Below are positions 5,020 to 62,842 of a stretch of DNA of 64,000 nt, piece after piece. The first letter of the stretch is position 1. Each line of letters starts with the position of its first letter. The translations under genes were made by a program, and so were the position numbers. Source of the stretch: Squalus acanthias (lineage: Eukaryota); contig CM059426.1 of assembly GCA_030390025.1 (NCBI GenBank), forward strand, positions 109,120,001 to 109,184,000, given 5' to 3'. The notes below the pieces were generated by a model that did not search any database, was not told the DNA's origin, and was given only the letters and a program-made list of their open reading frames with translations.

Positions 5020-5585
5020 TTGGTAACAACTTTGTCTTTGAGTCAGAAAGTCATAGGTTAAAACCCCAGTCAAGGACTTCAGCACCTTATCTAGGCTGAT
5101 ACTCCAGTGCAGTACTGAGGTGTCATTTTATGGATGAGATGTTAAATCGAGGCTCGATCTATCTGTTAAGGTAGATGTAAAAGATCTCAATCTTAGTATT
5201 CAAAGAAGAGAAGGTATTTATCTGTGTCCAACCAACAGCACAGAAGACAGTTTAACTGCTGCTTGATGTGCACCAGTTGATTGCCAGGTGTCCCTACATA
5301 ATGTGGAGATGCCGGTGTTGGACTGGGGTGGACAAATGTGAGAAGTCGCACAACACCAGGTTATAGTCCAACAGTTTTATTTGAAATCACAAGCTTTCGG
5401 AGCAGCGCTCCGAAAGCTTGTGATTTCAAATAAAACTGTTGGACTATAACCTGGTGTTGTGCGACTTCTCACATTTTCCCTACATAATAACAGTGATTGC
5501 ACTTCAAAATACCAATTCATTGCATATGAGAACTTGATGTCCCAGGGATGTGACAAGGTGCTATATAAATGCAAGTTCTTTCATC
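5020..5585 (+). mobile_element. DeuSINE-like SINE interrupted by fold-back copy 1
   Basis: tRNA-like head (agtcagaaagtcataggttaaaacccc), body, and tail ggtgctatataaatgcaagttc. Boundaries approximate. Confidence 0.7.
5303..5476. mobile_element. Penelope-like pLTR-derived fold-back insertion, copy 1 (inside a SINE)
   Basis: Perfect 70-bp inverted arms (5334-5403 / 5407-5476) with a 3-nt loop, a one-sided tail at 5303-5333, and TSD TCCCTACATAAT (5291-5302 and 5477-5488). Confidence 0.85.
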
Positions 5586-8986: not shown

Positions 8987-9371
8987 AAACATAGAATCTA
9001 GGAGCAGGAGTAGGCCATTCGGCCCGTCGAGCCTGCTCCACCATTCAATACAATCATGGCTGATCATCCAAGTCCAGTACCCTGTCCCTGCTTTAATCCC
9101 CACAGTACACATATCCCACCCTACCCCCGTAACCCCACGTACACATATCCCACCCTACCCCCGTAACCCCACGTATTTAGTTCCCCCTAACATATCCCAT
9201 CCTATCCCCATAACCCCACATATTTAATCCCCCCCTAACACTAAGGGTCAATTTATCATAGCCAAATCAACCTAACCCGCACATTTTTGGACTGTGGGAG
9301 GAAACCGGAGCACCCGGAGGAAACCCACGCAGACACGGGGAGAATGTGCAAACTCCACACAGACAGTCACC
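8987..9371 (-). mobile_element. HE1/V-SINE-like SINE with CR1-derived 3' tail
   Basis: V-domain-like tggactgtgggaggaaaccggagcacccggaggaaacccacgcagacacggggagaatgtgcaaactccacacagacag joined to a CR1-type 3' end. Near-identical to 19143-19418. Confidence 0.8.
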
Positions 9372-9523
9372 TGGTATGTTGGCCTTCATTGCAAGAGGAT
9401 TTGAGTACAGGAGCAAGGATGTCTTACTACAGTTATGATGCGGAGATGCCGGTGTTGGACTGGGGTGGACAAAATTGAGAGGTCGCACAACACCAGGTTA
9501 TAGTCCAACAGTTTTATTTGAAA

Positions 9524-9566
9524 TCACAAGCTTTCGGAGCTATCGATTTGCTCCTTCCTCAGGTGA
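9524..9566 (-). ncRNA. Minimal type I hammerhead ribozyme motif (antisense twin)
   Basis: Exact reverse complement of 9588-9630. Confidence 0.78.
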
Positions 9567-9587
9567 AGTAAATTACTTCAATTTACT

Positions 9588-9630
9588 TCACCTGAGGAAG
9601 GAGCAAATCGATAGCTCCGAAAGCTTGTGA
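9588..9630 (+). ncRNA. Minimal type I hammerhead ribozyme motif (Penelope type)
   Basis: UCAC-CUGAGGA-A-GGAGC(AAAUCGAUA)GCUCC-GAA-AGCU-U-GUGA: stem I, conserved core, stem II, palindromic AGCU stem III, CUU cleavage triplet. Confidence 0.8.
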
Positions 9631-9751
9631 TTTCAAATAAAACTGTTGGACTATAACCTGGTGTTGTGCGACCTCTCAATTTTACTACAGTTATACAGGG
9701 CCTTGGTGAGACCACATCTGGAGTACTTTGTGGAGCTTTGGTTTCCTTATC

Positions 9752-9848
9752 ATTGTACCTTTACCTGACGAAGGGGCGACAGCTCCGAAAGCTTGTAATT
9801 TTAAATAAATCTGTTGGACTATAACCTGGTGTTGTGCGACTTCTCATT
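9752..9848 (+). mobile_element. Penelope-like pLTR fragment, one-armed divergent copy (inside CR1 ORF2)
   Basis: Same arm sequence (gctccgaaagcttgtaattttaaataaatctgttggactataacctggtgttgtgcgacttctcat). Apparent short TSD TTATC; interrupts the CR1 codons for FWxPYL. Confidence 0.8.
9761..9798 (+). ncRNA. Minimal type I hammerhead ribozyme motif (covariant)
   Basis: UUAC-CUGACGA-A-GGGGC(GACA)GCUCC-GAA-AGCU-U-GUAA. Stem I has a compensatory C-G to U-A change relative to the other copies. Confidence 0.8.
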
Positions 9849-10905
9849 TTTATCTAAGAAAGGATATACTTGCCATAGAGGGAGTGCAGCGAAGGTTCAC
9901 CAGACTGATTCCTGGGATGGCAGGACTGTCGAGGAGAGATTGGGTCGACTAGGCCTGTATTCACTAGAGTTTAGAAGAATGAGAGGGGATCTCATTGAAA
10001 CGTATAAAATTCTGACACGGCTAGACAGACTGGATGCAGGGAGGATGTTCCCCCTGGCTGGGGAGTCTAGAACGAGGGGTCACAGCCTCAGGCTACGGGG
10101 GTAGGACATTTAGGACTGAGATGAGGAGAAATTTCTTCACTCAGAGGGTGGTGAACCTGTGGAATTCTCTACCACAGAAGGCTGTGGAGGCCAAGTCACT
10201 GAATATATTTAAGAAGGAGATAGATTTCTAGACACAAAAGGCATCAAGGGGTATGGGGAGAGAGCGGGAATATGGTATTGAGATAGAGGATCAGCCATGA
10301 TCATATTGAATGGTGGAGCAGGCTCGAAGGGCCGAATGGCCTACTCCTGCTCCTATGTTTCTATGTTTCAAAGGGATTTACAGTGCAGTGGACAGAGTAG
10401 GTTGTATGCCACAATCTTTCGTAGACTCATCTTTACTTGTGTGTTGTAAGAACAACTGACAAATGGCAGCTGATCGTGGGCTGGGAGACTGTTGAAACAG
10501 GGAGATGTACAAACAGAATAGTCAGCTGTGACTCCTTAGTTTAAACCCTCCCCGAGTGCTGTTGGGGAGGGTTTAAATTAGCTTGGCAGGGGGATGGGCA
10601 CCAGGATGTAGCATTAGAAAGGAGAAACAAGGTGCATAAAGTATTGGGAGAGACAGAGAGCACTAGAGTAAGAAATAGTACGGTATTAAGTGGGGTCAGA
10701 GTAAGAGAGAATACAAGAAGGTCGAAGATAGATTTACAGTGCATGTGTGTAAACGCATGAAGAGTAGTTAGTAAGGTTGGTGAGCTGCAGGTGCAAATAG
10801 CCACATGGGAATATGATGTCGTGGTGATAACAGAAACCTAGCTCAAAAAAGGGCAGGATTGGGTACTAAATATTCCTGGATATAGGGTGTTCAGGAAAGA
10901 TAGGG

Positions 10906-12356: not shown

Positions 12357-14362
12357 GGAAAGAAAGGAGGTGGGGTGGCAGTATTGATTAAGGAGAATAT
12401 TAGTGCTGGAGAGAGGATGTCCTGGAGGGGTCAAGGACAGAATCTATTTTGTTAGAGTTGAGAAACAATAGAGGTGCCATTACACTACTAGGTGTATTCT
12501 ATAGGCCACCAACTAGTGGGAAAGATATAGAGGAGCAAATTTGCAGGGAAATTACAGAGAGGTGCAAGAACTATAGAGTAGTGATAATGGGGGACTTCAA
12601 TTATCCTAATATAGACTGGGATAGTAATAGTGTGAAAGGGCAGAGAGGGGGAAGAATTTCTGAAGTGTGTTCAGGAGAACTTTCTTATCAGTACGTTTCC
12701 GGCCCAACGAGGAAGGAGGTATTGCTGGATCTGGTTCTGGGGAATGAGGTCAACTGGAGCAAGTGTCAGTAGGGGAACATTTAGGGAACAGTGATCATAG
12801 TATCATAAGGTTTAGATTAGCTATGGAAAAGGACGGGGGTAATCTGGAGTAAAAATGCTTAATTGAAGGAAGGCCAATTTCAGTGGGTTGAGAACGGATC
12901 TGGCCCGGGTAAATTGGAATCAATGATTGGCAGGCAAAATTGTAATCTAAGAATGGGCTGCCTTTAAAGAGGAGATGGTTTGGGTACAGTTGAGGTACAT
13001 TCCCACGTGGGGGAAAGGTAGGGCAACCAAAGCCAGAGCTCCCTGGATGACGAAAGAGATAGAGAGTAAGATGAAGCAGAAAAAGGGGGTGTAGAGATGT
13101 CCGGTTGAGAGTATAAGTGAGAACCAGGCTGAATATAGAAAGTTCAGAAAGTGAAAACGAAATGAGGGGCAAAGAGAGAGAGTATGAGAATAGATTGGCA
13201 GCTAACATAAAAGGGAATCCAAAAGTCTTCTATAGCCATATAAATAATAAACTGGTCGTAAGAGGAGGGCTGGGGCTGATTTGGGACCAAAAAGGAGACC
13301 TTCGCATGGAGGCTGAGGTACTAAATGAGTACTTTGCATCTGTCTTTACCAAGGAAGAAGATGCTGCCAAAGTCATAGTGAAAGAGGAGGTAGTTGAGAT
13401 AATGGATTGGATAAAAATTGATTCAGGAGGTACTAGAAAAGCTGGCTGTACTTAAAAGTAGGTAAGTCACCAGGACTGGATGCTGGGGCAGGTAGGGTGG
13501 AAATTGCGGAGGTGCTGGCCATAATCTTCCAATCCTCCTTAGATATGGGGGTGGTGCCAGAGGACTGGAGAATTGCTAATGTTACACCCTTGTTCAAAAA
13601 AGGGTGCAAGGATAAGCCCAGCAACTACAGACCAGTCAGTTTAACCTCGGTAGTGGGGAAACTTTTAGAAATGATAATCAGGGACAAAATTAACAGTCAC
13701 TGAGACAAGTGTGGATTAATTAAGGAAAGCCAGCACAGATTTGTCAAAGGCAAATCGTGTTTAACTAACTTGATTGAGTTATTTGATGAAGTAACAGAGG
13801 GGCTTGATGAGGACAATGCGGTTGATGTGTACATGGACTTCCAAAAGGCGTTTGATAAAGTGTCACATAATAGGCTTGCCAGCAAAGTTGAAGCCCAAGG
13901 AATAAAAGGGACAGTGGCAGCATGGATATGAAATTGGCTAAGTGACAGGAAACGGAGAGTGGTGAACTGGAGAGTGGTGTTCCCCAGGGGTCGGTACTAG
14001 GACCACTGCTTTACTTGATGTATATTAATGACTTGGACTTGGTGTACAGGGTGCAGATGACACAAAACTTGGAAATATAGTGAACAGTGAGGAGGATAGC
14101 GATAGACTTCAAGAGGACCTAGACAGGCTGGTGGAATGGGCGGACACCTGGCAGATGAAATTTAACGCAGAAAAGTGCGAAGTGATACATTTTGGTAGGA
14201 AGAACGAGGAGAGGCAATATAAACTAAAGGGTACAATTCTAAAGGGGGTGCATGAATAGAGAGACCTGGGGGTATATGTGCACAAATCGTTGAAGGTGGC
14301 AGGGCAGGTTGCGAAAGCGGTTAAAAAAAGCATATGGGACTCTGGGCTTCATAAATAGAGGT

Positions 14363-14557
14363 CATGATGCGGAGATGCCGGTGTTGGACTGGGGTGGACA
14401 AAAATGAGAAGTCGCACAACACCAGGTTATAGTCCAACAGTTTTATTTGAAATCACAAGCTTTCGGAGCTTCACCTGAGGAAGGAGCAGCGCTCCGAAAG
14501 CTTGTGATTTCAAATAAAACTGTTGGACTATAATCTGGTGTTGTGCGACTTCTCATT
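14363..14557. mobile_element. Penelope-like pLTR-derived fold-back insertion, copy 3 (inside CR1 ORF2)
   Basis: 69-bp arms (14401-14469 / 14491-14559, one mismatch), 21-nt spacer, TSD TTCATAAATAGAGGT (14348-14362 and 14558-14572). Confidence 0.88.
14471..14507 (+). ncRNA. Minimal type I hammerhead ribozyme motif
   Basis: UCAC-CUGAGGA-A-GGAGC(AGC)GCUCC-GAA-AGCU-U-GUGA. Confidence 0.8.
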
Positions 14558-17084
14558 TTCATAAATAGAGGTATAGACTACAAAAGCAAGGAAGTTATGA
14601 TGAACCTTTTATAAAACACTGGTTCAGCCTCAACTGGAGTATTGTGTCCAATTCTGGGCGCCACACTTTAGGAAGGATGTGAAGGCCTTAGAGAAGGTGC
14701 AGAAAAGATTTACGAGAATGGTTCCAGGGATGAGGGACTTCAGTTACGTGGATAGACTGGAGAAGCTGGGGTTGTTCTCCTTAGAGAAGAGAAGGTTGGG
14801 AGGTGATTTGATAGAGGTGTTCAAAATCATGAGGGGTATAGATAGAGAGAAACTGTTCCCTTTGGCGGAAAGGTCGAGAACCAGAGGAGACAGATTTAAG
14901 TTGATTGGCAGAAGAACCAAATGGCGACATGAGGAAAAACATTTTTACGCAGCGAGTGGTTATGATCTGGAATGCGCTGCCTGAAAGGGTGGTGGAGACA
15001 GATTCAATCGTGGCTTTCAAAAAGGAATTGGATAAGTACCTGAAGGAAAAAAATTTGCAGGGTTATGGGGAAAGGGCAGGCGAGTGGGACCAGCTGAAGT
15101 GCTCTTGCAGAGAGCTGGCATGGGTTCGACGGGCCGAATGGCCTCCTGTGCTGTAATCATTCTATGATTCCTGTTGGGTACTATGATCAGTTCATTGGGG
15201 CAAATCGATTTTCACTGTGTTCAAGAGAAAAATATCACCCATTTAGTCACTGTATAAGTCAAATTCTATCTAAGTTCCAGAATGATGTGTTTATGCAAGA
15301 AGTAAATCAACTGGACACAACATATTTACAGTTGACTGCTTGTGCATTTTATAGTCGATGTCTCAGGTGCAAATATTGTGTATCCTATTAATGCATAGTC
15401 ATAATATTAAGTACATCCCCAGGAGTGGGGAAGTAAAAATCTAATCAAGGCAAATCCTGACAAACTTTTGATGACAGAATATGAAAATATTTAAAGGGGG
15501 CTTTACCATGGCTGTGGTGAATGCTGCAATAGAAATTTAATGGTTTACTGGTGGCGCAAAGGCCTCGTTGCCCAACTAGTATAATTACCAAACCAAAGCT
15601 TCACAAAAGAATATTTGTGCTGTACAATTTAAAACATGTTGCTACTCCATGAGAATGAACCTCTCATTGTTTCTAAACTTAACACTTTTCTGGGTGCAAA
15701 CCTAACTGATGTGCCCTTTTAAATTGCCTTTTAAGATAGTGCAGACTGTGAATTCCCCCACTATACCACAGTCATTCTTCTGTGTTTTGAACTCACTTAA
15801 AGTTGTTATTACAAGGGTTATAAATCAAGAAAAGATTAAAGAACCAAACACACAGGGTGGTCTGATAGGTTAAGTGGCCGAGCAGGGTCACAGGAGAAAT
15901 TTTTAAGAGAATAAATTGCTTATGTCTGAAAGATACTGTGGAACATTTTAGTATTCTAGGTAACACTTCTTGCTTTCAAAAGGTTTGATAAAGTCCTTTG
16001 CTTTATACTTGATTTACATCTCCATTGCTCTACCACCAGAATTTTTTTGAAAGCTGACACAATCTGTATCTGTTTTATGCTAACATGTTTGTAATTCAAA
16101 ACCTTTCTTTTACCAATTTTGTCCCATTCCATGCATCTTCCTCCCAAATTTAATGAATTCTGCTCCAATATTTCCCACTGAGATTATGGAAATGAAAAAA
16201 AAAATCTAACTTAAAATAAATTATATGTTTAAAAACTAATAACCTGTGTTTTGCTAATGGAATGTACACTGGGGATCTATGTTTAATGGAGCATAAGCTA
16301 TTCATGTCATGGCTGACGTAAATCCCAAGCACCAATTGTGTACTGGACTCCATTCTTGAGATGTATTTTCAGAGGAGGTTTGATCAAGAATACTGCTATT
16401 TCAAATGTATTTGTTTGCTTTATGTACATAAAAGGCATATAATGCAAAAACAAAAGTCAATATTTTGAGTTGGAAATTAATTCCACAAAAATCTCCTTGA
16501 AGTGCTGTACAGTATACGCTATGTACACGTTGGAACACGTTTTTAAACAAACCTTTCCTATTATTTGCCTCTGGGCACTTCTAAAACTTGTAGTTTTAGA
16601 TCTTGGGCTCGTGAGTTTTGTCTATTTTAAGCAGGATTTTTACATCCTCCAAGACATTTTACAGCTTCAAGTTACAGGAAGAGGATTGGGTTACAGACCC
16701 TCTTGTCTTTTAGACTTAAAAATTTTCACTGGTTCACAGTCAACAAAGTAAATAGTGTACTGAACAGAAGTTAGTTCCAAATTTTAAATATTTTGACAGT
16801 CTGCATGTTTGAAATGTACCAAAATGTATGTATAAAATGTGGTTAGTTTTGTTTTAATAACATGAAAAACAAAATCTAATTATTGTGGCACTTGGGTAAT
16901 TATAGGAAATACTTATTTTAAAGTGCTTAGTTATAGGACATTTGCAGACAGAGAGTGGCAACATCCAGAATTAATGCATATGTGTTTTGTCTACCCTGGG
17001 TTACTGGCTGCACTGTTTGATCTGACTATTTGATGTGTCTTGTTCCTCCCAGACTAATCTCTCTTCTGTCTGAATGTATTCTGT

Positions 17085-19142: not shown

Positions 19143-19418
19143 ACATAGAAACATAGAAACATAGAATCTAGGAGCAGGAGTAGGCCATTCGGCCCGTCGA
19201 GCCTGCTCCACCATTCAATACGATCATGGCTGATCATCCAAATCCAGTACCCTGTCCCTGCTTTAATCCCCACAGTACACATATCCCACCCTACCCCCGT
19301 AACCCCACGTATTTAATTCCCCCTAACATATCCCATCCTATCCCCATAACCCCACATATTTAATCCCCCCCTAACACTAAGGGTCAATTTATCATAGCCA
19401 AATCAACCTAACCCGCAC
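19143..19418 (-). mobile_element. HE1/V-SINE-like SINE, 5'-truncated
   Basis: Near-identical to 8987-9281, with an (aacataga)n tail. Confidence 0.8.
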
Positions 19419-45156: not shown

Positions 45157-46740
45157 GGCCGCGATTTTCCCTGGGTCGGTGGTGGGTCGCGGCCCCACCC
45201 CTGTCTCCATCCCGGCCTCCACCATGACTTTCCCCTAATGGGGCTTGTTAAGCCCGCCCAGCGAGTTTCCCGGGCCAATTGATGGAAGCGGGTCTGATGA
45301 TGTGATTTGATGACACTTCATCAGTCGGTTTCCTTAAAGGGGCCATGCGCAAATTTACTTTGACATTTGTGCTGTCAGTGTTCCACAGCATTGAGGTGCC
45401 GCAAACACTGACAATGACTGCACAGAGGTGCACGGCTGCACCCAGGCTCTCCAATGACTCTCTCCATATGCTTATGGAGGGAGTAACAGCACAAAGGGAG
45501 GTTCTCTTTCCTTCCAATGGGCGGAAGAGACCTCCCCAGGATACCAACGCAGCCTGGTTGCACATTGCACAGGAGGGCACAACCAGGGATGTCGTCAGGA
45601 GGACCAGGCTGCAGTGGCGCAAACCTTTCAATGATCTCAGTAGATCACGAAACGTTACTGCAAAGCCACACTCATCACATCCCCATCACTCTGCCTTCCC
45701 TACCCTACTCCTGCACATCCTTACTCACACCAACTTACCTTGCACCTCCACCCATCCCCCTCTATCTACGTTATCACTTCCCTTACTATCCACCCCTCAC
45801 ACTCACCCTCATCCTAGTCCAGTCATACCAACTAACAACACACAAGGATAGGTTTTAGTCAATGTTCATGTGAAGTTTCTGTTAATGTGGTGTAAAACAT
45901 TGAAATCTTTATTTTCAACACTTTGCATTCGTGGTCAGATTTGTGTGCACCTTTGGAAGTGGCTTAGTGAGTTGCAGTGAATGGTGAAACATAACGGTCC
46001 CCGTCCCCCCCCCCCCCCCCCCCCGCAATGCTGATGAATGTGAAAGGAATGGTTTGGGCATTGTAGGGATGCTTTATATTGTTGGTGTGGGGTGGTGTCA
46101 ACCTGACGCATCATGTGGCAGCCAGGGTGTGCAGTGTCAAATGAAGTAAATGTGGCCATGGTGAGGCAATGTGGTTGGGTATTGATGCCCTCTGTCCTGT
46201 GCAGCACCAGGTGATTGTGGAGAAGGTTGGTGTGCCTAGTGATGCTGGTGTTGGGGCTGATGGTGGTCAGATTCTGAGGACCAAGGTGAGAGAGTATAAA
46301 GTGCACCATGCCGATGTAATAGATGGCAGGTGAAGTAGAGATGACAGAAGCAATCTGTCAATGGTGGGAGAGGTAATGAGGTCAGACTGGATGGAGACTT
46401 TTGTAAAGACTTGTAGCACTCTGAATCTGTAGTGGAAATGCAGTTTAGAGAAGCTAGTGGTTAAGGGAACATTTCTCAATCAGCTAGGAGCTTTGACTTG
46501 ATATTTGAAGCTGTCAACTCAACAGCTGATGCAATAGCAAGTGACCTCCTGCCTCAGCTTCACAGACAAGGTCTAGACACAACGGGAAACTGGTGGGTGA
46601 CATTTCAAATTGAGAAAGCTGGGGGGAAAAAAAGCATTGTTAAGTGGCTGTAAACAAGCCGTAATGGTTTGAATTGGATCCCCACCGCTGCCTGTCGGGT
46701 CTGCTCGGTGCTGGCAGACCCGACATTGGGAAATGCAGGA
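45157..46740. mobile_element. Internally deleted PIF/Harbinger transposon (Myb/SANT gene on +, transposase remnant on -)
   Basis: + strand APRLSNDSLHMLMEGV...VLFP...AAWLHIA...RTRLQWRKPFNDL is a Myb/SANT trihelix pattern. The convergent segment is homologous to 56830-57407. Ends approximate. Confidence 0.72.
45414..45650 (+). pseudogene. Harbinger Myb/SANT-like DNA-binding domain remnant
   Basis: Within ORF 45345-45851. W...RT..Q.RK.FNDL spacing of the MSANTD/trihelix family. Confidence 0.75.
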
Positions 46741-55327: not shown

Positions 55328-55465
55328 AAAAGCAAAATACTGCGGATGCTGGAAATCTGAAATAAAAACAGAAAATGCTGGAAATACTCAGCAGGTCAGG
55401 CAGCAACTGTGGAGAGAGAGAAACAGAGTTAACGTTTCAGGTCAATGACCTTTCGTCAGAACTGA
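55328..55465 (-). mobile_element. Second Penelope-like family, terminal pLTR fragment
   Basis: Minus strand reads cagttctgacgaaaggtcattgacctgaaacgttaactctg...ccagcatccgcagtattttgctttt. Begins with a hammerhead core; sequence unrelated to the fold-back family. Confidence 0.75.
55427..55463 (-). ncRNA. Minimal type I hammerhead ribozyme motif (second family)
   Basis: AGUU-CUGACGA-A-AGGUC(AUU)GACCU-GAA-ACGU-U-AACU: palindromic ACGU stem III and GUU cleavage triplet. Confidence 0.78.
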
Positions 55466-58190: not shown

Positions 58191-61100
58191 CAAAATGTCT
58201 CCGCTCTGGGTTGGAATGTGATTTTTTTTTTTGTCTTCACTACAGAGCATGAGTTTGAGTTGTAATATGATTCCATGTCTTTAAAGTGCTCCAATGTTGG
58301 GATGACTGCTTTATAGCTGTAGAGGGAAGTTACAGCAGCAATGTGAAACTTGGCTATAAGGTGTGCATTACAAGGATCAAAAAAGTCCTGCAAAAGGTGA
58401 TAGCAACCTGCACAAGGGACCACACCATTGTACAAAATCAATATTCCTTGCTCCATCAAAATTAATCAATCTGATGTGTTCAGCCTGGTGAAAATCATGG
58501 CTGTTTTCCAAAATATTTCATGATTAGATATGTGCAGAGTCGGTCAGTGCACTCCTCCAATAGATGCCTTCAGTAGTAGTTTGTTCATAACAATTGTAGG
58601 AAAATTTTATGTCGTGCTCGTTTTAGAAGTGCTGATGGTGGAAAAACTCCTCTTGTCAGCCTTGATCAGCTCTTCTGACATTAATAGACATTTAATATAT
58701 TGTAAAATGAAAAAGTTATAGATTTTAATTTTTCTTCCTCTGCCTCTTCAATTACTGCAGAAGATCAGTTTGAAATTCTTCAGTTACCATAATTTTGTCT
58801 TAGACTGCTGAACAATTTAATTTTGTATGTAGTCTGAATATTGTATCAGTGGTACTCATAAAATAGATAGCTTTGATTGTCCTGGAATATTTGTGCTTTG
58901 GTGTACCACACATTCTCATATATAAGTGCTAGTGAGTATAGGAATAGGAGGATAGAGCAGATGAATGCGTGGCTGAAGAGTTGGTGCAGGAGGGAGGGCT
59001 TTAGTTTCCTGGATCACTGGGTCTGCTTCTGGGGAAGGTGGGACCTGTACAAGTCGGACAGGTTGCACCTGAACCGGAACGGGACCAACATCCTTGCAGG
59101 GAGGTTTGCTAGTGCTGTTGCGGGGGGGGGGTTTAAGCTAACTTGGCAGGGGGATGGGATACGGAGTGGAGCTATAGTAGGGGGTGATGCACAGCCAAAT
59201 ATAGAGGAAAAAACAAGTCAGCCTGGAAGGCAGAGCAAATATGTAACGGCACAAGGGAGTATGGCAAGGCTGAATGGCATTTATTTTAATGCAAGGAGTC
59301 TTGCGAGTAAGGCCGATGAATTGAAGGTGTTGATGAACACATGGGAGTATGATATTGTTACTATCACAGAGACATGGTTGAGGGAGGGGCAGGACTGGCA
59401 GCTCAATATTCCGGGGTATAGAATCTTCAGGCGAGACAGAGGGGGGTGTAAAAGAGGAGGGGGTGTCGCAATATTAATCAAGGAGTCAATTACTGCTGTA
59501 AGGAGGGATGATATCTTAGCAGGTTCCTCTGATGAGGCCATATGGGTAGAACTTAAAAACAAAAAGGAGGCAAGCACTTTGCTGGGAGTGTACTATAGGC
59601 CCCCAAACAGTCAGGGGGAGATAGAGGAACAGATATGTAGGCAAATCTCAGAGAAGTGTAGAAATAATAGGGTAATAATAGTAGGGGATTTCAACTTCCC
59701 CAATATTAACTGGGATAGTCAGAGTGTGAAAGGCTTAAAGGGTGCGGAATTCTTAAAGTGCATCCAGGAGAGCTTTTTGAGCCAGCATGTAGAAAGTCCT
59801 ACAAGAGAGGGGGCGGTACTGGACCTAATTCTAGGGAATGTAGCTGGGCAAGTGGTAGAAGTGTTAGTAGGAGAGCATTTTGGTGACAGTGACCATAATT
59901 CGGTGAGATTTAAGGTAGTCATGGAAAAGGACAAAGATGGACCGGAAATAAAGGTTCTAAATTGGGGGAAGGCCGATTTTAATATGATAAGGCAGGATCT
60001 GGCCAAAGTGGACTGGGATCAGCTACTTGTAGGAAAATCCACATCAGAGCAGTGGGAGTCTTTCAGAAAGGAAATAGAGAGAGTACAATGCCAACATGTT
60101 CCCGTAAAAGTCGAGGGTGGGACCAACAAACCCAGGGAACCCTGGATGTCAAGGGATATACAAGAATGGATTACGAAAAAAAGGGAGGCTTTTGGCAGAT
60201 ACAAAGGACTAAACAGTGGAAGCCCTAGAGGAGTATAGAAAGTGCAGGAGGGTACTTAAGAAAAGAAATTAGGAGAGCGAAGAGGGGGCATGAGAAAACA
60301 CTGGCGAGCAAAATAAAGGAAAATCCCAAGGTGTTTTGTAAGTATATTAAGGGCAAGAGGATAACCAGGGAAAGAGTAGGGCCCATTAGGGACCAAAGTG
60401 GCAATCTGTGTGTAGAGCCGGAAGATGTAGGTGAGATTTTAAATGAATACTTTGCATCTATGTTCACTATGGAGAAGGACGATGTAGGCATAGAAATCAG
60501 GCAGGGGGGTTGTGATATACTTGAACAAATTAGTTTTGAAAGGGAGGAGGTTTTAGCGGGCTTAAAAGTGGATAAATCCCCAGGCCCTGACGAGATGTAT
60601 CCCAGGCTGCTGTGTGAGGCAAGGGAGGAGATTGCAGGGGCTCTGACACACATTTTCAGAACCTCTCTAGCCACAGGGGAGGTGCCAGAGGACTGGAGAA
60701 CAGCTAACATAGTACCATTGTTCAAGAAGGGTAGTAGGGATAAACCAGGGAATTATAGGCCAGTGAGCCTAACATCAGTGGTAGGGAAATTATTGGGAAA
60801 AATTCTGAGGGACAGAATTAGTCTCCACTTGGAGAGGCAGGGATTAATCAGGGATAGTCAGCATGGCTTTGTCGGGGAGATCATGTCTGACCAATTTGAT
60901 TGAATTTTTCGAGGGGGTGACTAGGTGTGTGGATGAGGGTGGTGCAGTTGATGTAGTCTACATGGACTTCAGTAAGGCTTTTGACAAAGTCCCACATGGG
61001 AGACTGGTCAAGAAGGTAAGAGCCCATGGGATCCAGGGCAATTTGGCACATTGGATCCAAAATTGGCTTAGTGGCAGGAGGCAGAGGGTGATGGTCGAAG

Positions 61101-61538
61101 GTTGTTTTTGTGACTGGAAGCCTGTGTCCAGTGGTGTACCGCAGGGATCGGTGCTGGGTCCTTTGCTGTTTGTAGTGTACATTAATGATTTAGATATGAA
61201 TGTAGGAGGTATGATCAGTAAGTTCGCAGATGACACCAAAATTGGTGGAGTGGTAAATAGCGAGGAGGGAAGCCTCAGGCTACAGGACGATATAGATGGG
61301 TTGGTTCGATGGACAGAACAGTGGCAAATGGAATTTAACCCTGAAAAGTGTGAGATGATGCATTTTGGGAGGACTAACAAGGCAAGGGAATACACAATGA
61401 ATGGTAGGACCCTAGGAAGGACAGAGGGACCTTGGTGTGCATGTACATAGATCCCTGAAAGCAGCAGGACAGCTAGATAAGGTGGTTAAAAAGGCATATG
61501 GGATACTTGCCTTCACTAGCCGAGGCATAGAATATAAG

Positions 61539-61750
61539 TCATGATGCGGAGATGCCGGTGTTGGACTGGGGTGGACAAAATTGAGAGGTCGCACAACACC
61601 AGGTTATAGTCCAACAGTTTTATTTGAAATCACAAGCTTTCGGAACTATCGCTCCTTCCTCAGGTGAAGTAAGGAAGGAGCGATAGTTCCGAAAGCTTGT
61701 GATTTCAAATAAAACTGTTGGACTATAACCTGGTGTTGTGCGACCTCTCA
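61539..61750. mobile_element. Penelope-like pLTR-derived fold-back insertion, copy 4 (inside CR1 ORF2)
   Basis: 81-bp arms (61580-61660 / 61672-61752), 11-nt spacer, TSD ATAGAATATAAG (61527-61538 and 61751-61762). Confidence 0.88.
61630..61667 (-). ncRNA. Minimal type I hammerhead ribozyme motif
   Basis: Minus strand reads UCAC-CUGAGGA-A-GGAGC(GAUA)GUUCC-GAA-AGCU-U-GUGA, with a G-U wobble in stem II. The + strand twin is truncated and lacks CUGA. Confidence 0.75.
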
Positions 61751-62842
61751 ATAGAATATAAGAGCAGGGAGGTTATGATGGAGCTGTACAAAACGCTAGT
61801 TAGGCCACAGCTGGAATACTGTGTGCAGTTCTGGTCGCCACACTATAGGAAGGATGTGATTGCATTGGAGAGGGTGCAGAGGAGATTCACCAGGATGTTA
61901 TCTGGGCTGGAGCGCTTCAGCTATGAAGAGAGACTGGACAGGCTGGGGTTGTTTTCCTTAGAGCAGAGAAGGCTGAGGGGGGACCTGATTGAGGTGTACA
62001 AAATTATGAGGGGCATAGATAGGGTAGATAGAAAGGAACTTTTCCCCTTAGTAGAGGGATCAATAACCAGGGGGCATAGTTTCAAGGTAAGGGGCAGGAG
62101 GTTTAGAGTGGATTTGAGGAAAAACTTTTTCACCCAGAGGGTGGTTGGAATCTGGAACTCACTGCCTGAAAGGGTGGTAGAGGCAGGAACCCTCACAACA
62201 TTCAAGAAGCATTTAGATGAGTACTTGAAATGCCATAGCATACAAGGCTATGGACCAAGTGCTGGAAAATGGGATTAGAATAGACAGGGCTTGATGGCCG
62301 GCGCGGACACGATGGGCCGAAGGGCCTCTTTCTGTGCTGTATAAATCTATGACTATGACTCTAAGATGAGAATTTTATGCCACTCTTCAAGCTTATTAGA
62401 GGGAGGTATCTTATTTATAAAGTGGAGTTGGGAGACTGATGTTAGATAACTGGTACTGCATAGAGTGGAGGTTACGTATTCTACTTGTAATGCTTTGATC
62501 ATTCTCCCACCAGTAAGTGGAGTTGGAGACTGACTACAGCATCTGATGGAATTGGCAAGTACAATATCCACAACATCCACTCTCGACAGTGCCAGTTTCC
62601 TGTTCCACTTTATCCAGTGCCCTTATTTTTGGCTGGAAAGTAGAATGGTGATTTGATATGCAGCTTCTCTTATAGTAGAGAATGTACAGTAACTGGAGTC
62701 TTTTTTTTAAAAAAAAAAAGAATTTTTTTTAAAATCCTGTTGTTTATAGTTCTTTACACTATCTAGCATATGACTAATCGTAACAGCGAGGAAACATTCT
62801 GTGTGACGCTTCTCAAACTATTTTATTTTAAACACTCTATAG

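What the first reader, a model, noticed from the sequence alone, without database searches (positions are those of the whole stretch)
9761..9798. Covariation across copies supports a conserved hammerhead fold
Seen in sequence: stem I is UCAC/GUGA in most copies but UUAC/GUAA here, a compensatory double change. Stem II varies only by wobble pairs (GGAGC/GCUCC, GGGGC/GCUCC, GGAGC/GUUCC). Its loop is free (AGC, GACA, GAUA, AAAUCGAUA). The core changes only at the variable N7 position (CUGAGGA vs CUGACGA). Stem III is the palindrome AGCU and all copies have an extra A after A9. Established: minimal PLE hammerheads with palindromic stem III are proposed to cleave as dimers. Inference: structure was under selection in the source elements, and several source subfamilies were active.
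Basis: partly seen in the sequence, partly recalled or inferred. Interest (0 to 1): 0.7.

Follow-up and report, generated by a model that had tools for sequence, protein, structure and literature searches.

The report
Known-type hammerhead in Penelope retroelement ends
The 38-base motif is a real minimal hammerhead ribozyme fold carried by short dead copies of a very abundant Penelope-like jumping gene, a kind described in 2014, so the catch is correct but ordinary.

Summary
The motif at 9761-9798 (+) is as described: a minimal type I hammerhead with an extra A after A9 and a palindromic AGCU helix III. It lies in a 98-nt insertion with a 5-bp target duplication, one of five short insertions of one family. 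The other four have the inverted-copy-plus-tail layout of Penelope-like elements (PLEs).

Inside the window the covariation is one base pair in one of four independent copies and is not significant (99 of 500 shuffles). Outside data strengthen it. Two distant metagenome relatives, picked by a downstream box and not by their stems, raise it to 4 two-sided pairs (0 of 500). Both stem I alleles are common in four organisms.

Corrections: position 17 also varies (U/C), and no Rfam hammerhead model matches. No insertion arm starts at the cut site (0 of 9), so the copies came from uncleaved RNA. Cleavage is untested and no PLE ORF was tied to the family here.

The extra nucleotide, palindrome, covariation and dimer model are all in Cervera and de la Pena 2014. 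This scan noted the same kind of element before on other DNA. Verdict: new member of a known kind.

The parts
9761..9798 (+). Minimal type I hammerhead, UUAC/GUAA subfamily: stem I 9761-9764 with 9795-9798; core 9765-9771; extra A 9772; stem II 9773-9777 with 9782-9786; GAAA 9787-9790; palindrome AGCU 9790-9793; U17 9794; predicted cut 9794/9795
9752..9849 (+). Whole insertion holding the finding: single, tail-less, 5'-truncated terminal-repeat copy; target duplication TTATC at 9747-9751 and 9850-9854 (edges blurred by microhomology); host is a LINE 3' part
   Evidence: (loose ends at 9850 show host copies running on without the insert)
9813..9832 (+). Conserved downstream box shared with distant relatives L095 and L120; its first 8 nt can pair with the tail in tailed copies
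9437..9681 (.). Head-to-head insertion: minus arm with 34-nt tail (9437-9470) and hammerhead 9524-9566; plus arm without tail and hammerhead 9588-9630; 13-bp target duplication 9424-9436 / 9682-9694
14363..14557 (.). Head-to-head insertion: tailed minus arm cut off in stem II; plus arm with complete hammerhead 14471-14507; 15-bp target duplication 14348-14362 / 14558-14572
61539..61750 (.). Head-to-head insertion: tailed minus arm with complete hammerhead 61630-61667 (G-U variant in both arms); plus arm starts inside the core; 12-bp target duplication 61527-61538 / 61751-61762
5303..5476 (.). Head-to-head insertion whose centre (5399-5411) is the stem II hairpin itself; no complete hammerhead; 12-bp target duplication 5291-5302 / 5477-5488

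Best explanation
The motif is the minimal type I hammerhead of the pseudo-LTR (pLTR) of an endonuclease-bearing Penelope-like retroelement family. It is seen here in dead, 5'-truncated copies from at least two source subfamilies. SHOWN: fold-compatible sequence, target duplications, inverted-arm-plus-tail layout, high abundance, two common stem I alleles, compensatory changes across relatives. FROM THE LITERATURE: in the parent element two hammerheads on one tandem transcript pair their AGCU palindromes to complete helix III and cut slowly, possibly helped by the element's protein; reverse transcription starts at two nearby sites, which gives tailed and tail-less ends. INFERRED: the copies here were reverse-transcribed from RNA not cut at this hammerhead; synthesis stopped in or just 5' of the hammerhead; the 9752-9849 copy is a lone product of the inner (tail-less) start site. 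The compensatory changes arose and were selected in the source elements. The copy at 9761 is a passive record and is not itself shown to be under selection.
For: Core, extra nucleotide, G10.1-C11.1 and palindrome fit the published consensus; a turtle example in supplementary Fig. S3 of PMC4209133 has the same G-C-U-U after GAAA. 4 of 5 insertions have an adjacent inverted copy and a tail on one end only, with 12-15 bp duplications, as described for PLEs. Covariation with relatives: 4 two-sided pairs, 0 of 500 shuffles; slid controls pair 28-49% of cells. Both loci with the exact 12-nt box have stem I and stem II of 4 bp or more, against 5 of 121 metagenome core matches and 0 of 56 prokaryote control matches. 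All 6 differences between this copy and the 61663 copy spare core and pairing; random placement does that in 0.6% of trials, and with a two-sided change in 0.29%. The only variant listed in the core is U17 to C, which the NUH rule (recalled) allows. 10,382, 938, 584 and 1,148 contigs of four runs align. 0 of 9 arms start at the cut; they carry 13-47 nt 5' of it. Contig depth shows no step at 9794/9795. This matches the finding in PMC11167929 that unprocessed RNA is the main template.
Against: No PLE reverse transcriptase or GIY-YIG frame was tied to this family: none of 55 frames scanned (of 56 listed) hit a GIY-YIG family, and no genome is held. The only protein clue is a 29-residue peptide upstream of L095 that looks, from recall only, like a PLE C-terminus. 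No Rfam hammerhead model matches even at E 10. Window-only covariation is not significant. The fold is not unusually stable (z -1.15 to 0.06). The with-relatives test has only 6 sequences and each two-sided change is seen once. Linkage of 9762-T with 9797-A across copies is indirect. Cleavage is untested.
Confidence: 0.88

Rival explanations
1. The fold and core are kept in the source elements mainly as a structural signal (stop or fold-back point for reverse transcription, protein-binding fold), and cutting is weak or dispensable.
For: All 9 arms end 13-47 nt 5' of the cut and none at it. One inversion centre is the stem II hairpin. In the predicted cofold of two copies of this motif the 6-bp palindrome AAGCUU pairs A14 with U17 and blocks the core. 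Hammerhead mutants did not reduce insertion in vitro for the anole element. Naiad PLEs spread without canonical hammerheads.
Against: The catalytic core letters are kept in all 5 complete window motifs, and the only listed core variant is U17 to C (weak, because contigs drop rare variants). The anole PLE hammerhead does cut when protein is present. This rival can hold together with the best explanation.
Confidence: 0.2
2. The two stem I changes are chance or repair-templated changes without selection on an RNA fold; the apparent covariation comes from few related sequences.
For: In the window 99 of 500 shuffles reach the observed value. Both changes are transitions. Each two-sided change in the six-sequence set is seen once.
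Against: Three different stem I pairs and one stem II pair change on both sides, with no broken pair in 52 cells. The A allele at 9797 is common in four organisms, so it is not private. The stem I strands are 30 nt apart and only 4 bp long, a poor template for palindrome correction (inference).
Confidence: 0.07
3. The insertions are a self-standing non-autonomous hammerhead element (non-LTR retrozyme type) of about 150 nt, not truncated PLE ends.
For: All five insertions are short, and their 5' ends cluster near the hammerhead. Aligned depth falls steeply 5' of the motif. A preprint links animal retrozymes to pLTRs and finds them in one chondrichthyan genome.
Against: No head-to-tail array with hammerheads is present. 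Helix I is 4 bp, not the canonical 6. Junctions differ in every insertion. Loose ends in three runs show that the family continues upstream of 9750. The depth fall is confounded by clipping of the other subfamily.
Confidence: 0.12

Closest known systems
Minimal hammerheads (min-HHR) of metazoan Penelope-like elements (Cervera and de la Pena 2014, PMC4209133)
   Same: Type I topology, short helix I, an extra nucleotide between 9 and 10.1, G10.1-C11.1, palindromic 15.2-16.2, many families with covariation per genome, mostly solitary truncated copies, some close pairs on opposite strands. The turtle example has the same G-C-U-U ending and the lamprey example the same UCAC/GUGA stem I.
   Different: No shark or ray name was found in the one supplement file searched (file 1 not searchable). 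The stems and the downstream sequence are family-specific. No ORF was linked here.
Insertion units of endonuclease-bearing PLEs with inverted pLTR and tail (Arkhipova et al. 2013, PMC3846280; Craig et al. 2021, PMC8557442)
   Same: Adjacent inverted 5'-truncated copy, 30-40 nt tail at one end, target duplication (here).
   Different: Here the units are only 98-245 nt and hold no ORF; the copy of the finding is a lone tail-less arm.
Poseidon element of Anolis carolinensis (Frangieh et al. 2024, PMC11167929)
   Same: Hammerhead shortly upstream of two reverse-transcription start sites that define the tail; AT-rich targets; uncleaved RNA as template.
   Different: There the ORF starts at stem II; here no ATG lies in stem II. 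The clade of this family was not determined.
Non-LTR retrozymes (bioRxiv 10.64898/2026.07.22.740005)
   Same: Type I hammerhead, no protein, related to pLTRs.
   Different: Defined by tandem units each with a hammerhead; none here.

Membership tests
Metazoan PLE minimal hammerhead | Core CUGANGA ... GAAA ... UH between helices I and II | tested here: met
   5 of 5 complete motifs
Metazoan PLE minimal hammerhead | Extra nucleotide between 9 and 10.1; G10.1-C11.1 pair | tested here: met
   A at 9772; G9773-C9786; invariant in 6 of 6 sequences of A3, though the scan pattern fixed these letters for L095 and L120
Metazoan PLE minimal hammerhead | Palindromic 15.2-16.2, no stable helix III as a monomer | tested here: met
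   AGCU 9790-9793; the monomer fold has helices I and II only
Metazoan PLE minimal hammerhead | Covariation among families | tested here: met
   Not significant in the window; 4 two-sided pairs with two relatives; small sample
Metazoan PLE minimal hammerhead | Lies in the pLTR of an element with RT and GIY-YIG ORF | tested here: inconclusive
Metazoan PLE minimal hammerhead | Self-cleavage as dimer or with protein | not testable with these tools
   All runs offered were contigs, which cannot show RNA ends
EN+ PLE insertion unit | Adjacent inverted 5'-truncated copy | tested here: met
   4 of 5 insertions; the copy of the finding lacks it
EN+ PLE insertion unit | 30-40 nt tail at one end only | tested here: met
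   About 31-39 nt on the minus arms of 4 of 5 insertions
EN+ PLE insertion unit | Target site duplication | tested here: met
   12, 13, 15, 12 and 5 bp; the 5-bp one is short enough for chance but fits the empty host site
Rfam hammerhead families (e.g. Hammerhead_1) | Match to the curated covariance model | tested here: not met
   No hammerhead family at E up to 1 on the window or E up to 10 on 9745-9855
Non-LTR retrozyme | Tandem repeat with a hammerhead in at least two consecutive units | tested here: not met
   None of 13 tandem-repeat rows overlaps a hammerhead

The most novel reading that the evidence does not exclude
The hammerhead, the downstream box and the tail form one compact cis-module, conserved across distant organisms. 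Its fold is selected less for cutting than for steering reverse transcription. The box pairs with the tail in an 8-bp helix that would place the two start sites; the uncut hammerhead marks where synthesis stops or folds back; and the element may prefer one stretch of CR1-type LINEs as a target (4 of 5 insertions within about 105 nt of homologous host sequence). The common U17 form could even be a self-damped ribozyme through A14-U17 pairing in the dimer.
Probability: 0.15. Interest if true: 0.5.

Novelty: new member of a known kind. Interest (0 to 1): 0.17.

Why it matters
As found, it adds one more vertebrate family to the known PLE hammerheads and gives a small, clean covariation set. What the hammerhead does for a PLE is still described as unclear (PMC8557442). 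A family this abundant, with two common stem I alleles, a natural U17/C17 pair and many truncation points, would be a convenient test set for whether cutting matters in transposition.

Tried and rejected
No whole genome was held, so no genome-wide alignment was possible. Rfam gave only hairpin-driven microRNA matches and one weak sRNA match below the gathering scores; these were rejected as effects of the inverted repeats. An exact 22-nt family pattern found 0 loci in metagenome contigs. The core pattern found 1 viral locus without stems, taken as chance, and 56 prokaryote loci, used as a control. L129 (box with 2 mismatches, prokaryote control, no stems) was left out of alignment A3; 3 of 177 loci carried the box within 2 mismatches. 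The records behind L095, L120, L013, L056 and L086 could not be searched further. The 29-residue L095 peptide was too short for the protein search, so the clade stays open; it has no match in the window (best E 2.2). The box-tail helix pairs in 48 of 48 cells but shows no two-sided change, so it is not established. Covariance-model scores on pattern-selected loci were not used as evidence, since controls reach 31 bits by construction; on the window the model found no further family copy. Nearest-neighbour energies do not favour the double-hammerhead over two monomers (-18.5 against -19.4 kcal/mol); this is uninformative because tertiary contacts are not modelled. Lunse et al. was not held (one search used a wrong id and returned an unrelated paper). 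No passage on CUU versus CUC rates was found in PMC1636495.

Full report
Observation. BLAST and a pattern search found four more complete motifs, with C3 at 9592 (+), 9562 (-), 14475 (+) and 61663 (-); all have UCAC/GUGA. Those at 9592 and 9562 are the identical arms of one insertion, so there are four independent sequences. A generic minimal-hammerhead descriptor gave 6 hits in the window and none in 60 shuffles; the sixth hit is an unrelated family at 55427-55463 (-). Single-strand folding gives helices I and II in all four folded copies, with unremarkable z-scores of -1.15 to 0.06. No Rfam hammerhead model matches.

Surroundings. The motif lies in a 98-nt insertion (9752-9849) between two copies of TTATC. 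Contigs of four runs show host copies running on across this site without the insert (loose ends at 9850). The host is the 3' part of a LINE: its flank aligns to the element at 58877-62500, which has endonuclease and RT Pfam hits. The name CR1 is from recall. The four other insertions (5303-5476, 9437-9681, 14363-14557, 61539-61750) have 12-15 bp duplications and a head-to-head layout, in which the minus arm carries a tail of about 35 nt that the plus arm lacks. This is the layout described for endonuclease-bearing PLEs (passages of PMC8557442, and PMC3846280). The copy of the finding ends at the same inner point as the tail-less arms. That the genome is shark-like comes from earlier scan notes and recall, not from a test of mine.

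Covariation in the window. All 45 cells pair, but only one pair changes on both sides, in one copy, and 99 of 500 shuffles reach that. The title claim is therefore not carried by the window. A second view is more favourable. The six differences between this copy and the 61663 copy all spare core and pairing; six random substitutions do so in 0.6% of trials, and with a two-sided change in 0.29% (70% transitions assumed, structure taken from these same sequences).

Covariation with relatives. Stem II of 4 bp or more formed in 68 of 121 against 6 of 56; both stems of 4 bp or more formed in 5 of 121 against 0 of 56. Many metagenome matches are copies of a few repeat families and are not independent. 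Three of 177 loci carry the window's downstream box within two mismatches. L095 and L120 match its 12 nt exactly and also share the tail motif; L129, a control without stems, was left out. L095 and L120 were thus chosen without regard to their stems, and both form them. With them, 52 of 52 cells pair, three stem I pairs and one stem II pair change on both sides, 0 of 500 shuffles reach this, and slid partners pair in only 28-49% of cells. The set has six sequences and each change is seen once, so this is support, not proof.

Subfamilies. Laying contigs of four runs (organisms A-D) on 9715-9890 aligned 10,382, 938, 584 and 1,148 contigs. At 9797 the G allele holds 25, 51, 42 and 30% of summed depth, so the A of the finding's copy is a common allele and not private. 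No variant row appears at 9762. Loose ends show UCAC-type contigs clipped there, one group with A at N7. Pieces spanning 9762-9821 with only two differences occur in organisms B and C. Linkage of the two positions is therefore likely but indirect. Position 17 is C in 16, 6, 6 and 6% of depth; it is the only core variant listed at 2% or more. One contig of organism B suggests a U-A pair at the top of stem II, together with a damaged core. Summed contig depth is not copy number, contigs drop rare variants, and local alignment clips the other subfamily. Both arms of an insertion share private variants (the G-U form at 61539-61750, the 9-nt loop at 9437-9681), so these were in the template or were copied from the first arm.

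Mechanism. From the literature: two such hammerheads on one tandem transcript can pair their palindromes to form helix III, and cleavage in vitro was low even so (PMC4209133, parts 1-2 of 4 read; review passages of PMC6765202). In the anole element, reverse transcription starts at two nearby sites that define the tail, the hammerhead cuts only with protein, cutting is not needed for insertion, and unprocessed RNA is the main template (PMC11167929, parts 1-2 of 4 read). The window fits this. None of 9 arms starts at the predicted cut; they carry 13-47 nt 5' of it (junctions are blurred by microhomology). Depth in organism A is flat across the cut (3.9, 3.8, 3.9 million), and no end cluster is listed. 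I infer that the copies came from uncleaved RNA, that synthesis stopped in or just before the hammerhead, and that 9752-9849 is a lone product of the inner start site. Selection acted in the source elements; the copy itself is a record. Cleavage was not tested.

What is not shown. No PLE ORF is tied to the family. None of 55 frames scanned (of 56 listed) hit a GIY-YIG family, and no genome was held. L095 has, about 210 nt upstream of its hammerhead, a frame end that resembles a PLE C-terminus from recall only.

Comparison with what is known. Cervera and de la Pena list as recurring features many families with compensatory changes, a nucleotide between 9 and 10.1, G10.1-C11.1 and palindromic 15.2-16.2. 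Their supplementary alignment (file 2, part 2 of 3) includes a turtle motif with the same G-C-U-U ending and a lamprey motif with the same UCAC/GUGA stem I. Supplement file 1 could not be searched, and the supplements of the 2026 preprint were not seen; either could hold a chondrichthyan example. Searches for a paper on shark PLE hammerheads gave nothing specific (1 paper, where 'shark' refers to the shape; 1 unrelated listing; 0). The preprint on animal retrozymes (part 1 of 5 and passages) reports retrozymes in one chondrichthyan genome. Lunse et al. was seen as a title in a reference list only. Earlier notes of this scan describe the same kind of insertions in other windows.

Verdict. The kind is known: new member of a known kind, interest 0.17. 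The residual value lies in the side leads: the conserved box and its possible helix with the tail (48 of 48 cells paired, no two-sided change), the clustering of junctions at the hammerhead, the U17/C17 pair, and the apparent clustering of insertion sites in one LINE segment.

Noticed in passing
window 55427-55463 (-): A second, unrelated minimal hammerhead (palindrome ACGU, extra A, 4-bp stems), single in the window; probably the end of another Penelope-like family.
   Followed up: partly
window 9424, 9747, 14348, 61527 (target duplications): 4 of 5 insertions lie within about 105 nt of homologous LINE ORF2 3' sequence (offsets about -15, 0, +24, +89 relative to 61751; two from BLAST, one by eye), although the window holds only 9 such segments.
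   Followed up: partly
window 9813-9832; L095 349-367; L120: A 20-nt box downstream of the hammerhead is almost unchanged in two distant relatives and lies where contig depth peaks in four organisms. Its first 8 nt can pair with the tail; only two wobble changes, no two-sided change.
   Followed up: partly
window 9588-9630 and 9761-9798 (+): Two hammerheads of different subfamilies lie 173 nt apart on one strand by independent insertion: a natural tandem that could form a mixed dimer if transcribed.
   Followed up: no
window 9789-9794: With U17 the palindrome extends to 6 bp (AAGCUU), and the predicted cofold pairs A14 with U17, which would block the core; the C17 variant avoids this.
   Followed up: partly
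window 5399-5411: The centre of this inverted insertion is exactly the stem II hairpin, as expected if the new strand folded back there.
   Followed up: no
L002-L121: Several unrelated multi-copy families in metagenome contigs share the same core with the AGCU palindrome and different stems, e.g. L013/L021/L056, L007/L075/L099, L086/L098 (two opposed motifs in L086), L017/L093.
   Followed up: no
window 45306-45851 (+): Frame with a weak Myb/SANT-like hit (PF13873, E 5e-5), possibly a DNA transposon remnant.
   Followed up: no
window 9098-9240 and 19262-19376: The same 47-nt C-rich tandem unit occurs at two places.
   Followed up: no
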